This document shows, one piece after another, positions 12,291-56,159 of a DNA stretch of 64,000 nucleotides. Position 1 is the first letter of the stretch, and every line of letters starts with the position of its first letter. The DNA is from Eledone cirrhosa (lineage: Eukaryota). The notes below the pieces were generated by a model, which saw only the letters and a program-made list of their open reading frames with translations, made no database searches and was not told the DNA's origin. The stretch spans positions 28,830,001 through 28,894,000 of the forward strand of contig OZ024755.1 in the NCBI GenBank assembly GCA_964016885.1, written 5' to 3'. The translations under genes were made by a program, and so were the position numbers.

Positions 12291-12478
12291 GGAACGAGTA
12301 GGACCCCGACCGCTGAGCTCAATCCGTTTCGACGGCTAAGTCCAGAATTAGCCGTCGAAACGGCTTGAGCTCAGCCGTCGGGGTCCTACTTGTTCCTATT
12401 ACCCAATCTACTACCCTAAGTATTGAGTACTTTGGTGCGTTATGGTCCACCTGGTTCCTTACCAAATTTCCTTCGTTA
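12291..12478 (+). mobile_element. fold-back mini-element family A (hammerhead 3' half)
   Basis: 49 bp arms around GTCCAGAA; right arm GAAAC-GGCT-TGAGCTC-AGCC-GTC; fixed tail ...GGTGCGTTATGGTCCACCTGGTTCCTTACC; within (TA)n. Confidence 0.85.
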
Positions 12479-13426
12479 TATATATATATATAAGAAATAC
12501 TCTATATATTTTATCTAATGATTCTATGGACTTATATATATATATATATATATATATATATATATATATGTTTATTTACACTAGACGGTAGCATATATTA
12601 GAAAATTGAAGTTATCATTAATATTGTGTAGACAGATAAATTAAGATTTTATCTTTTATTTTCTGTTTAATTAGGTGTCGCTTTCAAAGGAATGATGTAC
12701 AGACATTTTCAATTATTCTTCTGTACACATAAGAATTAATATACATTTGAATTTAAGCATTCGGTAGTATTGTACACATAATTGTGTATGTAGCATATTA
12801 TACGTATAACTGCGATGTATTATACGTATAACAGCTATACACGGGATGTGTATAGATGCGATATATATTTCATAAATGGTTAGACTACTTTGATTGATGT
12901 GCATACATTTGATGACGTAATTATCTTATCTATAATACAGAAAGCAGTGCGGGACTGCGTCCAGAATATATTTGTTTTACCCTGTTTCTAAAATGAGTTG
13001 GATTACTTTGAATATATAATGATTGAATATTACATAATTTATGTAATACATTTCGTAACACATGATTAAATATATTTTATTGCTTATTTAAAGATTCACA
13101 TTTTTTAAATTTTCAAACTCGACACTTCCGGTTAGCGGCCGTTATATTATAACACTTGTAAAAACATAGCATATATTTCCGTCGTTAATTTTCTCCTAAT
13201 GCAGTTTATATATGATATCGTCTTTTTTAAATGTATCATGGATTACGTTACTGATTACATAAGAGAGTGTAACGCAGTCTTCGTTCAACTTCTGTGCATA
13301 TTGTTAATTATGATTTTATTTGATGTATCATATCTACATGCGTGTATATTTGCGTATAATATCAATATACACACTACACATGCTAGCAAACAAACACCCT
13401 TCGTGTGGTGTTTCTGTTAGTTTAAA

Positions 13427-13535
13427 TAATGGTTTCTAGTATAGGCACAAGGACAGCAATTTTGGGAGAGGGGAAAGTCGATTAAATCGGCCTCAGTACG
13501 TTACTGGTACTTTATTTTATCAACCCCGTAAGGAT
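13427..13535 (-). mobile_element. partial SINE of the 1268-type subfamily
   Basis: GGCACAAGG...GGGGAAAGTCGATT...CTGGTACTTTATTTTATC. Confidence 0.75.
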
Positions 13536-13720
13536 TCCATCCCTGTACTCACATGGTAGTCGTGAGTAACGCACACACACACACATACACGCACACACAC
13601 TCATACACACATGCACACACACACACACACACACACACACATATATATATATATATATATATATATATATATATATATATATATATATATATATATATAT
13701 ATATATATGTGTGTGTGTGT

Positions 13721-13932
13721 GAAAAGATTCATGAACCCGATGGTTGAGCTCCGGCCGTTTCGACAAGTAGATCCAGATTTTGATTTAGATGTAGTTTGGA
13801 TTTAGCTTTCGAAACGGCCGGAGCTCAGCCGTGGGTGTCCTGAATCTTTTCATATTACCCAATCTACTACCCCAAGTATCGAGTATTCTGGAGCGTTATG
13901 GTCCACCCGGTGTCTTATCACACCCTCTTTGA
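13721..13932 (+). mobile_element. family A fold-back mini-element, diverged variant
   Basis: Arms around a different spacer; GAAACGGCCGGAGCTCAGCCG; same tail. Confidence 0.8.
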
Positions 13933-14049
13933 TTTCGGCCAGTCTTGACCCAGGCCATGTCGACCTCAATAGTACCACTCGGTGAAGTCTTTCAAATTAT
14001 TTCCAAAGTGAATTAATTCAAAGTTACCCAGTTTCAGTTGCATATTGAT

Positions 14050-14265
14050 TTTTACCTCCCATTTGATAACGGCAAGTAGATCCGATTGAAGGCCTGTCGG
14101 GTCTCAGAGTTCATTAATGATCTTCTGGAGCTTGGAATCATCTGCGAAGCTTTTATGTTACTCTGCTTGATGATATCAATAATGTTATTGATATAAATAA
14201 TGAAGATAGTTAGCCCCAACACAATGTTTTGTGGGATGCTAATACTGACTTTGACTGATAATAAT
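14050..14265 (-). pseudogene. CR1/L2-group LINE reverse transcriptase fragment
   Basis: VSISIPQNIVLGLTIFIIYINNI resembles the [23 protein letters not shown] RT motif. Confidence 0.75.
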
Positions 14266-52909: not shown

Positions 52910-52966
52910 GGAACAAGTAAGACCCCGACGGCTGAGCTCAAGCCGTTTCGACGGCTAATTCTGGAC
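52910..52966 (-). mobile_element. family A single arm
   Basis: GGAACAAGTAAGACCCCGACGGCTGAGCTCAAGCCGTTTCGACGGCTAATTCTGGAC between TA tracts. Confidence 0.8.
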
Positions 52967-53749
52967 ATATATATATATATATATATGTTTGTGTGTTTGT
53001 GTTTGTGTGTGTGTGTCTTTGTATGTATGTATGTTAATATATACGTATATATATGTGTATTAGACCGTTCGCAACTATATGATAGTTAGGTAAACCTATC
53101 ACATCACAAGATAATTTTTGTTTCACATAATCGATAAATTACATCGCCAAATACAATCCATGTGTATTTCAAAATTATTTGGTGTCAAATTTGTTATAGA
53201 TGCTTAATGATGTATCGTAGGTTGTACCATTATATACTTCTGCCACTTTGGCTTTCATAATAAACCTGTTTGATTCTAGATGTAGACAGAGGCGGGCATT
53301 CGCGGTCTAGCTTAACAACATATACAGTTGTATATAGACACACAGACACAAACCTATACCCAAGAGGGGTGGGTAACACCACCTCGTACTATTCCCCCTA
53401 TATGCCTTTTCTTCCCTCCTTCTTTATTTACTTACTTGTTCCTGTCTACAGGCATTCTACTTCAAATGCACACATACATGCACACAAACACATACACACA
53501 TATATATATATATATATGTATATATATATATATATATATATATATATATATATATACTCACACACATATATATATATATACTCACACACATATATATATA
53601 CACACACACATATATATATATATATATTAAATATACACGTATACACACACACACATATATATATATATATATATATATATATATATATATATATATATAT
53701 GAACCAGTAAGATATATATATATATATATATATATATATATATATATAT

Positions 53750-53865
53750 GAACCAGTAAGACCCCATGGGGTCTTACTGGTTCCTATTACCCACTCCACT
53801 ACCTCAAGTATTGAGTACTTTGGTGCGTTATGGTCCACCTGGTTCCTTACCACATTTCCTTCGTT
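53750..53865 (+). mobile_element. family A mini-element folded at the cleavage site
   Basis: GAACCAGTAAGACCCC-AT-GGGGTCTTACTGGTTC followed by the family tail. Confidence 0.8.
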
Positions 53866-54914
53866 ATATATATATATATATATATATATATATATATATA
53901 TATATATATATACATACATATATAAATATATATATATATCATGTATATATATATACATATATATACACACATATATATATATATATACACATATATATAT
54001 GTATATATATATATATGCATATATATGTGCATATATATACATATATATATATGCATATATATATATATATGTATATATATATACATATATAAATATATAT
54101 ATATATGTGTGTGTGTATATCTATATATCTATGTATATATATATATGTGTGTATATATATATATACATATATATATGTATATATATGTGTATTTATATAT
54201 ATACATACATATGTGTGTATATATATATATATATATACACACACACACATATATATATATATATATATATATATATATATATATATATATATACACGTTT
54301 CCTGCTACATTTCCGTACTTCCTACTGCCACATGTCTTCGTTACCCGGACATTTACCTATCTGCTTTGCAGAGGCTTCCCAAATTACCATATATATATAT
54401 ATATATATATATATATATAATATATGTGTGTGTGTGTGTGTGTGTGTGTGTGTGTGTCTATGTCTGTGTGTGTTTGTGTGCGTGTGTACGTGTGTGCCTG
54501 TGTGTGTAGAAATGTTCATATACACATATATATGTATGTATATATGTGCATTTTTACACACACGCACACACGTACACAAACACACAGACACATATGTATA
54601 TACGCAGACTCACACACACACACACACATACATAAATTACCGTATTTTGAGCTGCTTTAACCTCATCACCTACTTCTTTCCAGTTTTATATATATATATA
54701 TATATGCATATATATATATATATATGCATATATGTGTTGGTATGTGCCTGAATTAATCTGCCATTTCACGTGCATATAACCACATTTATATACGCGCAAC
54801 TATATATATATATATATATACAAATGTATATAATATATATAATATATCTATATATATATATATGTATTTTGATCATGCTTTATTTTTACTTTTATTTTTA
54901 ATTTCATTCGCACC

Positions 54915-55442
54915 GTTTCCTTTCGCTATATGTCTCTCCACCACTCCCCTACACACCCTTTGAACTCTGTTCCCACACACTTCTCACCTGAGGAAGGGCT
55001 TATGCCCGAAACGTCGTTCCCCACCACCACGCCACTCTCCAGAGCGTGAAATTAATAAACATTCGTTGTACTGCCTCTCTGTTTTGTTCCTGTTCAAAGT
55101 TTTCCATTATATATATATATATATATAGAGAGAGAGAGAGAAATAGAGTCAGGGCCCGGACGGCTGAGCACCCGCGGCCGTTTCGACAGCTATCTCTGAT
55201 AGATAGATATCGTACGGCCGGAGCTCAGCCGTCGGGGTCCTGACTCCTTTCCTATTACCCACTCTATTACCTACAGTAAGTAGTACTCTGGTGCGTTATG
55301 GTCCACCATACTTCCTCACCTGAGGAAGGGCTTATGCCCGAAACGTCGTTCCCCACCAACACCCCACTCTCCAGAGCGTGAAATTAATAAACATTCGTTG
55401 TACTGCCTCTCTGTTTTGTTCCTGTTCAAATTTTTCCATCCT
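54915..55442 (+). mobile_element. two family E hammerhead units flanking a family A element (55139-55308)
   Basis: CTGAGGA-AGGGC-TTAT-GCCC-GAAAC-GTC at 54988 and 55320, with nearly identical tails. Confidence 0.82.
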
Positions 55443-55982
55443 ATATATATATATATGTGTATATATATGTCTATACATAAATAAATGTCGCCATGTGATG
55501 TATAACCGTGCTCAAGATCTTCATATGGTGAATTAATCCTTATATATTTACACTTTACATATTTTGCAAGGATATTTGTAAGCCGAGTAGAGACAAAACA
55601 TCTGACGTACACACACTCACACGCGCATGCGCGTAAGGACAGTATCATGCGTATATTGCCGCTCGCATATGAACTTTCTACAACTCAGACATTATCTAAC
55701 AGATGGACAAACACAAATATTAACGTGTAGTACACGCCTAGAGAGACCTTGTTTGATATATAGCCATTGGCTATACATCTACACATATTTAGAAGATAAA
55801 CAAATACAACCAAAGAAGGGTCATTATTCAGCGTGTGTGTTTCTGTATGAATACGTACATGTATACACACACACATATATATATATATATATATATATAT
55901 ATATATATGGGAAATATATATATATATATATATATATATATATATATATATATATATATATATATATATATATATATATATA

Positions 55983-56159
55983 GGAAAATGTATGACCCCG
56001 ACGGCAGAGTTCAAGCCGTTTCGACGGCTATTCCTGCGTCCAGAAATAGCCGTCGAAACGGCTTGAGCTCTGCCGTCGAGGTCATACATTTTCCTATTAG
56101 CCACTTGAGTACTCTGGTGCGTTAAGGTCCATCTGGTTCCTTACCACAATTCCTTTGTT
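55983..56159 (+). mobile_element. family A fold-back mini-element
   Basis: About 50 bp arms with GAAACGGCTTGAGCTCTGCCGTC and the family tail. Confidence 0.85.

What the first reader, a model, noticed from the sequence alone, without database searches (positions are those of the whole stretch)
12291..56159. Family A: eight copies of a half-hammerhead whose 5' half is replaced by a snap-back copy of itself
Copies at 12291, 13721, 27098(-), 51818(-), 52910, 53750, 55139 and 55983. Most retain GAAAC-GGCT-(palindromic GAGCTC)-AGCC-GTC, the 3' core, stem III and GUC site, yet none has CTGANGA. Instead the upstream sequence is the reverse complement of the element, centred at the presumptive stem II loop. 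The spacer differs per copy (GTCCAGAA; TT; ATATTTCA; CCTGC...). Each left arm tracks the subfamily variants of its own right arm, so the fold-back appears to be generated independently at each insertion. Inference: cDNA stalls at ribozyme stem II, folds back and self-primes second-strand synthesis.
Basis: partly seen in the sequence, partly recalled or inferred. Interest (0 to 1): 0.85.

Follow-up and report, generated by a model that had tools for sequence, protein, structure and literature searches.

The report
Tiny Penelope-type hairpin insertions
These are very short, abundant stubs of what is probably a Penelope-like retrotransposon, inserted as back-to-back pairs with a one-sided tail, a layout already known for that group; the odd part is that most copies stop at one point inside what looks like the element's ribozyme.

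Summary
All eight copies are real. Seven are head-to-head inverted pairs with a tail on one side; one (52910) is a solo, tail-less copy. All touch (TA)n or a related microsatellite. None has CTGANGA within 150 nt upstream of GAAAC (0 of 10 arms). This layout is published for Penelope-like elements (PLEs). The window holds other families built the same way, with complete hammerheads, and one ends an RT/endonuclease remnant. Public reads show two fixed 3' ends about 81 nt apart, the PLE tail signature, and a sharp 5' boundary about 19 nt upstream of GAAAC. Arms match their own partner best in 5 of 7 pairs. No CTGANGA parent was found. Best reading: two cDNAs, begun at the two reverse-transcription start sites on opposite target strands, are joined head to head (0.5). 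Snap-back (0.22) and copying of hairpin master RNAs (0.18) remain open. Precise fold-back at stem II is poorly supported because the centres are heterogeneous. Verdict: a new variant of a known kind, useful as a large natural test set for how PLE inversions form.

The parts
12291..12478 (+). Copy 1: left (inverted) arm 12291-12339, right arm 12340-12396, tail 12397-12478; (TA)n on both sides
12357..12379 (+). Hammerhead-like 3' half in copy 1: GAAAC, 6-bp stem, loop with palindromic GAGCTC, GTC (putative cut after 12379)
   Evidence: 41 of 5000 shuffles; 2 of 5000 with palindromic loop
12350..12365 (+). Competing hairpin: AGCCGTC upstream of GAAAC repeats the stem III/cut-site heptamer and can pair with ACGGCT, trapping GAAA in the loop
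   Evidence: -8.0 against -7.8 kcal/mol
13721..13934 (+). Copy 2 (second subfamily, diverged): left arm 13721-13777, filler or upstream sequence 13778-13794, right arm 13795-13851, tail 13852-13934; microsatellite on the left only
27098..27261 (-). Copy 3: 21-nt left arm 27261-27241 that stops inside GAAA, centre 27240-27237, right arm 27236-27179, tail 27178-27098
51818..51997 (-). Copy 4: left arm 51997-51940, filler 51939-51933, right arm 51932-51900 with the GAAAC-stem III stretch deleted between the direct repeats, tail 51899-51818; arms differ at 7 of 13 diagnostic columns
52910..52966 (-). Copy 5: solo, tail-less arm (GTCC boundary to the tail-less 3' end) between (TA)n runs; no palindrome
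53750..53866 (+). Copy 6: left arm 53750-53765, 2-nt centre, right arm 53768-53784, tail 53785-53866; both arms begin at the base after the putative cut site
55140..55307 (+). Copy 7 (second subfamily): left arm 55140-55199, filler 55200-55213, right arm 55214-55252 beginning after GAAAC, tail 55253-55307 cut off by another element that carries a complete minimal hammerhead
55983..56159 (+). Copy 8: left arm 55983-56036, right arm 56038-56094, tail 56095-56159 with a 16-nt deletion

Best explanation
Family A consists of very short, 5'-truncated copies of the 3' end (pLTR) of a Penelope-like retroelement, or of a non-autonomous derivative of one. The mechanism is inferred, by analogy with the in vitro work on the anole Poseidon element. 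A PLE RT-endonuclease, probably dimeric, nicks both strands of a (TA)n run. From one nick it primes cDNA at the distal start site (tail end); from the other nick it primes at the proximal start site about 81 nt upstream (tail-less end). Both cDNAs stop at about the same place, 15-24 nt upstream of GAAAC, because the template RNA begins there or has a strong stop there. The two 3' ends are then joined head to head by end joining, with 0-2 nt of microhomology or short fillers copied from the element. A single priming event gives solo copies such as 52910. The 'half hammerhead' is the 3' half of the pLTR ribozyme, and the inversion did not replace a specific part of it. Shown: the layout, the two 3' ends, the sharp 5' boundary, heterogeneous centres, and PLE neighbours with the same layout. 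Inferred: PLE parentage, ribozyme ancestry, and dual priming.
For: Layout matches the published PLE pattern: inverted 5'-truncated copy plus a tail at one end, and (TA)n targets (PMC3846280; PMC8557442). In reads, two discrete 3' ends join (TA)n: tail end 8232 and 9100 reads in X7 and X8; tail-less end 1995+1777 and 2011+1475 reads; X1 contigs 242 against 222+47 (table 7). The anole PLE nicks and extends both strands and starts RT at two sites that bound the tail (PMC11167929). 6 of 7 left arms start at the tail-less end (to within a base or two), as does the solo copy. In neighbouring family D, the same kind of tail-less end terminates a copy carrying an ORF remnant (57283-60081) and also starts the left arm of a palindrome (8524), while another ORF-bearing copy ends with the tail. 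That ORF is PLE-like: 31-35% identity to RT proteins with PF26215, E to 2e-30, and GIY-YIG clusters by features. The tail of A shares an 18-nt motif with family C (9 of 2000 and 2 of 2000 shuffles), which has the same layout and a near-complete core. The tail-bearing arm does not always reach furthest upstream (55139; probably 51818). The arms of 51818 differ at 7 of 13 diagnostic columns, including a site where both letters are common in the population (27227: 43% in X1). In 53750 and 27098 both arms end at the same base with a 2-nt centre, which leaves little room for a snap-back loop.
Against: No parent with CTGANGA or with an attached ORF was found, so PLE membership rests on layout and neighbours. 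The tail is 81-82 nt, against 30-40 nt in the papers read. The left arm of 27098 stops inside GAAA, not at the tail-less start site. Arms usually belong to the same subfamily (5 of 7; 78 of 97 columns), which snap-back explains more simply. Fillers copied from the element, and one X1 contig folding back on a 6-nt microhomology (table 5c), point to some snap-back synthesis. The tail similarity to family D is not significant on its own (133-1843 of 2000 shuffles). Later deletion, CpG decay and gene conversion could produce the asymmetries I use as evidence, and there are only 7 pairs. The right arms do not fold better than shuffles (z -0.76 to +0.33).
Confidence: 0.5

Rival explanations
1. Snap-back. 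One cDNA starts at the tail end, stalls near the ribozyme, folds back on itself and copies itself as far as the tail-less end, where the endonuclease or repair joins it to the target.
For: Own-arm tracking in 5 of 7 pairs. Templated fillers in several centres. One X1 contig folds back on the hexamer AATTAG, which the loose-end consensus suggests is a natural mini-hairpin just upstream of the boundary (tables 5c and 7). Snap-back 5' junctions are documented for R2 proteins (PMC11371274, passages). Self-priming was proposed for PLE palindromes (PMC3846280).
Against: Centres are heterogeneous (agreement 0.41-0.53), not one parental loop. Only 2-3% of the depth at the boundary continues along the centre of 27098. 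Solo tail-less copies and ORF-bearing tail-less copies of family D need the tail-less end to be a start site or a cut site. The right arm is shorter than the left in 55139. The arms of 51818 carry different common variants. In other families of the window the centre lies upstream of CTGA (12110, 26687, 32800) or downstream of the cut site (52727), so it is not tied to stem II.
Confidence: 0.22
2. Hairpin masters. Some palindromic copies are transcribed by read-through and retroposed whole in trans by a PLE protein. The (TA)n at the master's 5' end anneals to the target, and centres vary through slippage and through there being many masters. No full parent need survive.
For: This explains the fixed start of the left arm, the absence of any parent, and the sharp boundary. 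Reads from other loci share the centre of 27098 and continue as palindromes: depth at 27260-66 is 19.8 and 13.9, against about 20.6 and 15 expected if they run on through GAA, and 10 and 6 if they left at the stem II end (my arithmetic, table 2).
Against: All 7 centres in the window differ. Loose ends at the boundary are heterogeneous. A 50-60 bp RNA duplex is a poor template and a likely target of silencing (general knowledge). Solo copies end at the same boundary.
Confidence: 0.18
3. The GAAAC-stem-GTC motif is not a ribozyme remnant. It is a protein-binding or folding element made of two direct heptamer repeats around their complement, and the parent never had CTGANGA nearby. This rival can hold together with any of the junction models.
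For: No CTGANGA was found anywhere. The 30-letter continuations seen in X8 and X1 agree with each other at about 24 of 30 letters and hold no reverse complement of CTGANGA, so the core would lie over 45 nt upstream, against 12-32 nt in the other families of the window. The competing hairpin is as stable as stem III. Naiad PLEs lack canonical hammerheads and target (TA)n (PMC8557442). Rfam gives no hammerhead match.
Against: The motif is rare in shuffles. It fits the published PLE consensus of C-GAAA-N, palindrome, NUH (PMC4209133 supplement). It sits 17 nt before the tail-less end, as in family C (16 nt). 53750 is centred exactly at the predicted cut site (one case). Rfam also missed the complete small hammerhead at 12150.
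Confidence: 0.15
4. A MITE or other DNA element descended from one ancestral hairpin.
For: Small size, long inverted repeat, insertion at TA.
Against: The inverted repeat does not reach the 3' terminus (81-nt tail outside it). There are two alternative 3' ends and solo arms. Centres vary. Left arms are less like each other (0.61-0.92 for the full-length arms) than, in 5 of 7 cases, like their own right arm.
Confidence: 0.04

Closest known systems
Inverted pLTR plus tail insertions of endonuclease-bearing Penelope-like elements (Penelope/Poseidon, Neptune, Nematis, Hydra, Naiad; PMC3846280, PMC8557442)
   Same: 5'-truncated copy in inverted orientation at the 5' end, palindromic junction, tail on one side only, (TA)n targets without a visible target duplication.
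   Different: Whole insertions are only about 60-210 nt. The tail is 81-82 nt instead of 30-40. The 5' ends pile up at one point instead of being spread. No ORF or full pLTR is linked yet.
Anole Poseidon element PAc in vitro (PMC11167929)
   Same: Two internal RT start sites that bound the tail, both target strands nicked and extended, AT-rich target, hammerhead upstream of the start sites.
   Different: PAc has a complete hammerhead that overlaps its ORF start. Family A shows no reading frame conserved across its two subfamilies (2-nt offset) and no protein match.
Type I minimal hammerheads of PLE pLTRs (PMC4209133; review PMC6765202)
   Same: C-GAAA-C, palindromic loop III, NUH triplet, position near the 3' end of the repeat.
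   Different: CUGANGA, the 5' arm of stem II and the 5' arm of stem I are missing. Stem III is long (5-6 bp). A competing hairpin can bury GAAA.
Naiad 'HHR_half_core' entries (PMC8557442 methods and File S1)
   Same: PLEs in (TA)n with an incomplete hammerhead core are on record, including cephalopod families.
   Different: There the first half (CUGANGA) is present and the second half lies 35-50 nt away; here only the second half is seen. Ten family A motifs gave no genuine match in that file (one hit, which by its context looks like chance).
Snap-back 5' junctions of R2-protein insertions (PMC11371274); L1 twin priming (recalled; seen only as a reference title there)
   Same: Inverted sequence at the 5' junction made during insertion.
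   Different: As I recall, L1 twin priming inverts part of one copy without duplicating it; here the same stretch is present twice and the left arm starts at a fixed site.
Non-LTR retrozymes (bioRxiv 10.64898/2026.07.22.740005)
   Same: Short non-coding, hammerhead-related repeats proposed to derive from PLE pLTRs.
   Different: Retrozymes are head-to-tail tandem repeats with complete ribozymes; family A is dispersed, head to head and incomplete.

Membership tests
Penelope-like element | RT plus GIY-YIG ORF joined to the repeat | tested here: inconclusive
   No ORF is attached to any of 8 copies. The one open frame found no relative. No genome is held. Truncated copies would lack it anyway; other families in the window do have it.
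Penelope-like element | Inverted 5'-truncated copy joined head to head | tested here: met
   7 of 8 copies; opposite-strand joints in reads.
Penelope-like element | Optional 3' tail: two discrete 3' ends | tested here: met
   Ends at 27094-27098 and 27176-27179 joined to (TA)n in X7, X8 and X1; length 81-82 nt, longer than the published 30-40.
Penelope-like element | Insertion into AT-rich or (TA)n targets, target duplication not discernible | tested here: met
   6 of 8 copies have (TA)n on both sides; 13721 and 55139 have a microsatellite on the left only.
Penelope-like element | Hammerhead in the pLTR (absent from Naiads) | tested here: inconclusive
   Only the 3' half is seen; parent not found.
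Hammerhead ribozyme (type I) | CUGANGA core | tested here: not met
   0 of 10 GAAAC-bearing arms have it within 150 nt upstream; not in the listed loose-end consensuses (516 further loose ends were not shown).
Hammerhead ribozyme (type I) | GAAA, stem III, NUH | tested here: met
   GAAAC with GTC in place in 7 of 15 arms; 41 of 5000 shuffles.
Hammerhead ribozyme (type I) | Stems I and II closing the three-way junction | tested here: inconclusive
   The 5' strands exist only as part of the inverted arm, which pairs with everything.
Hammerhead ribozyme (type I) | Self-cleavage | not testable with these tools
   Only a hint: both arms of 53750 start at the predicted cut site.
MITE | Terminal inverted repeats at both ends and one homogeneous structure | tested here: not met
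   Tail lies outside the repeat; solo arms; two 3' ends; varied centres.
Non-LTR retrozyme | Head-to-tail tandem units each with a complete hammerhead | tested here: not met
   Copies are dispersed and head to head; core incomplete.

The most novel reading that the evidence does not exclude
Family A is a high-copy parasite of a PLE whose template carries only the GAAA/stem III/GUC half of a hammerhead. The CUGANGA half lies far upstream (beyond a long insert or a retained intron) or is supplied in trans. The repeated heptamer acts as a switch that buries GAAA until the missing half pairs. A ribozyme-defined RNA end or stop fixes where cDNAs end, so that every insertion builds its own hairpin. 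This would be a split, switchable hammerhead that dictates the shape of retroposed DNA.
Probability: 0.1. Interest if true: 0.78.

Novelty: new variant of a known kind. Interest (0 to 1): 0.42.

Why it matters
How PLEs make inverted ends and tails is named as an open question in PMC8557442, and in vitro work has so far explained only the tail. Here whole insertions fit inside one sequencing read, and the family is very abundant (about 20,000 reads in each RAD run; 8 copies in 64 kb). Both arms and the junction can therefore be scored at many loci, which can separate dual priming, snap-back and master copying by computation alone. The fixed 5' boundary, and the copy centred on the predicted cut site, also bear on whether PLE hammerheads cut or stall anything in vivo; PMC11167929 found no RNA ends at the cut site. 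Such copies could also be mislabelled as MITEs or miRNA hairpins by automatic annotation (inference).

Tried and rejected
Whole-genome collection of copies: no genome is held. Rfam: no hammerhead family appears among the 150 listed of 272 window matches or the 14 matches at 12130-12480; the listed hits are all below their gathering scores, mostly microsatellite or hairpin matches, and Rfam also missed the complete small hammerhead at 12150. Pattern scans for relatives: metagenomes 0 and 1 chance hit in what reads as a bacterial gene; prokaryotic genomes 0; viral contigs 0. These collections are not expected to hold this host. A motif from the loose-end consensus has 0 matches in the window at up to 3 mismatches. 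The sequence after copy 13721 is not the element body; by eye it is a decayed LINE-type RT on the minus strand. The 46-codon open frame found no protein (weak evidence). Earlier findings of the scan: none. No RNA holder listed. The depth drop at 27225-27227 in the RAD runs was not used as evidence: it probably marks a restriction cut at AATT (inference from read length and mate direction). My hammerhead script found only 3 of the window's hammerhead-like motifs; the rest were read by eye. A type II arrangement with CTGANGA downstream of the cut site was looked for by eye and not seen. The repeat finder was swamped by microsatellites. The paper on dimeric PLE hammerheads (PMC5785218) is not held. 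Literature searches that found no description of this family or of a fixed truncation inside a PLE hammerhead. Subscription papers, Repbase/Dfam libraries, one unsearched supplement file of PMC4209133, the unread supplement of PMC13282606 and preprint supplements were not seen and may hold it.

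
Full report
Setting. The window is AT-rich eukaryotic DNA (GC 0.20-0.46) in which a microsatellite mask covers 10,214 of 64,000 bases. No genome is held. The interspersed SINE-like repeat looks to me like a cephalopod SINE; that is recalled and was not tested.

The observation. BLAST with copy 12291 finds the eight stated loci, and a profile search finds only those. Oriented with the tail at the 3' end, seven read: microsatellite, inverted left arm, centre, right arm, tail, and in most cases (TA)n. 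Copy 52910 is a single arm without tail or partner. GAAAC is in 10 of 15 arms, with GTC in place after the stem in 7. None of the 10 has CTGANGA within 150 nt upstream. The motif GAAA + stem of 5 bp or more + UH appears in 41 of 5000 shuffles, and in 2 of 5000 with a palindromic hexamer in the loop. GTCCAGAA, listed as a spacer, is element sequence in 7 arms of 5 copies. The left arm's best match is its own right arm in 5 of 7 pairs. Diagnostic columns agree at 78 of 97 within copies and 251 of 544 between copies; 51818 agrees at only 6 of 13.

The neighbourhood. The same layout recurs in other families: 8171-8524, 12034-12186, 26570-26738, 32749-32917, 52687-52767, 56246-56440 and a 600-nt palindrome at 20118-20718. 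Several carry hammerhead cores that are complete or nearly so by eye. A GIY-YIG frame at 25880-26227 (Pfam E 0.00036, just under the curated cut-off, 1 hit in 25 frames scanned) is followed by a hammerhead at 26433. The 304-aa frame at 21018 is 31-35% identical to RT proteins with PF26215 (three printed) and falls near GIY-YIG clusters. It lies between an inverted RT fragment and a family D repeat with a hammerhead. A second copy (57283-60081) ends at family D's tail-less end, where the left arm of the palindrome at 8524 also starts. So in this genome the layout belongs to PLEs. Family A's tail shares an 18-nt motif with family C (9 and 2 of 2000 shuffles); its likeness to family D is not significant. 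Centres in these other families lie upstream of CTGA, in the stem II region for one arm, or downstream of the cut site, so they are not tied to stem II.

Evidence from public reads (window 27092-27288, 80% likeness; two RAD read sets X7 and X8 from one study, contig sets X1 and X4). About 20,000 reads in each RAD run, 15,841 X1 contigs and 146 X4 contigs were laid; counts are reads or contigs, not loci. Two 3' ends join (TA)n: the tail end (8232 and 9100 reads) and the tail-less end (1995+1777 and 2011+1475; the second figure is the same end in a variant clipped a few bases early). At the 5' side, summed X1 depth falls from 657,291 to 13,376 across 27238/27239, so few copies share this copy's centre. 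The loose ends there are heterogeneous (agreement 0.41-0.53). The X8 and X1 consensuses nevertheless agree at about 24 of 30 letters, which may be true upstream sequence of part of the family; it holds no reverse complement of CTGANGA. A core would then lie over 45 nt upstream of GAAAC, against 12-32 nt in the window's other families. Only the best-supported loose ends were listed and 516 were not shown, so a rare parent is not excluded. Reads that share this centre continue through GAA as palindromes rather than leaving at the end of the supposed stem II (depth 19.8 and 13.9 observed; about 20.6 and 15 expected for palindromes, 10 and 6 for parents; my arithmetic). X4, a different organism by its code, holds mainly the tail.

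What is known. PMC3846280 (passages and Discussion read) describes inverted pLTRs, a one-sided 31-bp tail and palindromes at head-to-head junctions, and proposes self-priming. PMC8557442 (passages, one Discussion section and File S1 rows) gives the inverted 5'-truncated copy plus 30-40 bp tail as typical, notes (TA)n targeting, lists half-core hammerheads in Naiads, and calls the origin of these structures open. PMC11167929 (parts 1-2 of 4) shows a PLE protein nicking and extending both strands and starting at two internal sites that bound the tail. PMC4209133 (parts 1-2 of 4 and supplement passages) reports minimal hammerheads with palindromic loop III in pLTRs, and pairs on opposite strands 100-700 bp apart. 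PMC11371274 (passages) documents snap-back junctions for R2 proteins. PMC6765202 and PMC13282606 were seen as passages, and the retrozyme preprint as part 1 of 5. Seven searches found no account of this family.

Mechanism. Dual priming explains the fixed start of left arms (6 of 7), the solo tail-less copy, the left arm that outreaches its right arm (55139), the mixed pair (51818) and the 2-nt centres. Snap-back explains same-subfamily arms, templated fillers, the short left arm of 27098 and one contig with a 6-nt fold-back homology. A strict fold-back on stem II should give one constant centre, which is not seen. Copying of hairpin masters explains the missing parent and the sharp boundary, but not well the seven different centres. 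The two first models may combine, with two cDNAs whose ends snap back briefly before joining. With seven old copies, later deletion and conversion cannot be ruled out. I put dual priming at 0.5, snap-back at 0.22, masters at 0.18 and a DNA element at 0.04. Separately, I put the chance that the motif is no ribozyme remnant at about 0.15.

Unexplained. Why the 5' ends pile up 15-24 nt before GAAAC; why the tail is twice the published length; and why the heptamer before GAAAC repeats the one at the cut site. The stem III 5' strand can pair with either copy at equal energy (-8.0 and -7.8 kcal/mol), and the upstream pairing buries GAAA. This could be an off-switch, or a sign that the motif is something else.

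Verdict. A real feature, correctly noticed but partly misdescribed. It works like a PLE inverted-plus-tail insertion. PLE membership is probable but not shown, and it is not a complete hammerhead. New variant of a known kind; interest 0.42, mainly as a large natural data set for an open mechanistic question.

Noticed in passing
window 20118-23226 and 56546-60081: Two decayed PLE insertions of one family: RT fragment with a 600-nt head-to-head inversion, C-terminal endonuclease frame, long 3' region and hammerhead-bearing repeat. One ends with the tail, the other without.
   Followed up: partly
window 26570-26738, 32749-32917, 35875-35928: Family C: same hairpin-plus-tail layout as family A, centred just upstream of a CTGATGA-like core, with about 72 nt of tail sharing an 18-nt motif with family A; stem II is atypical.
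   Followed up: partly
window 25880-26520: GIY-YIG frame followed by a hammerhead at 26433: 3' end of another PLE.
   Followed up: partly
window 11960-12240 and 56246-56500: Palindromic insertions of related families; 12150 holds a complete hammerhead with a 10-bp stem II that Rfam did not report.
   Followed up: partly
window 6550-6724, 54926-55105, 55308-55437: Solo copies of a family with a classic minimal hammerhead; two of them flank or interrupt family A copy 55139.
   Followed up: partly
window 2269, 16599-16719, 40447-40569: Further solo hammerhead-bearing fragments, the latter two ending at (TA)n.
   Followed up: no
window 8171-8524 and 52687-52767: Family D palindromes: in one the left arm ends in the stem II region; in the other the centre lies just downstream of the cut site, as in family A copy 53750.
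   Followed up: partly
window 13766-13779 and 14074-14088: The inner end of the left arm of copy 13721 shares an 11-nt exact match, with a short continuation, with the flank 300 nt downstream (a decayed LINE-type RT on the minus strand, by eye); chance or conversion.
   Followed up: no
window 53701-53713: A 13-nt duplicate of the start of the left arm of copy 53750 sits inside the upstream (TA)n run.
   Followed up: no
window 4873-5238, 7184-7593, 16986-17534, 25119-25665: Four copies of a 400-550 nt repeat, 90-93% alike, ending at (TA)n; not examined.
   Followed up: no
window 1268-46071 (20 intervals): An abundant SINE-like family or families; resembles cephalopod SINEs from recall only.
   Followed up: no
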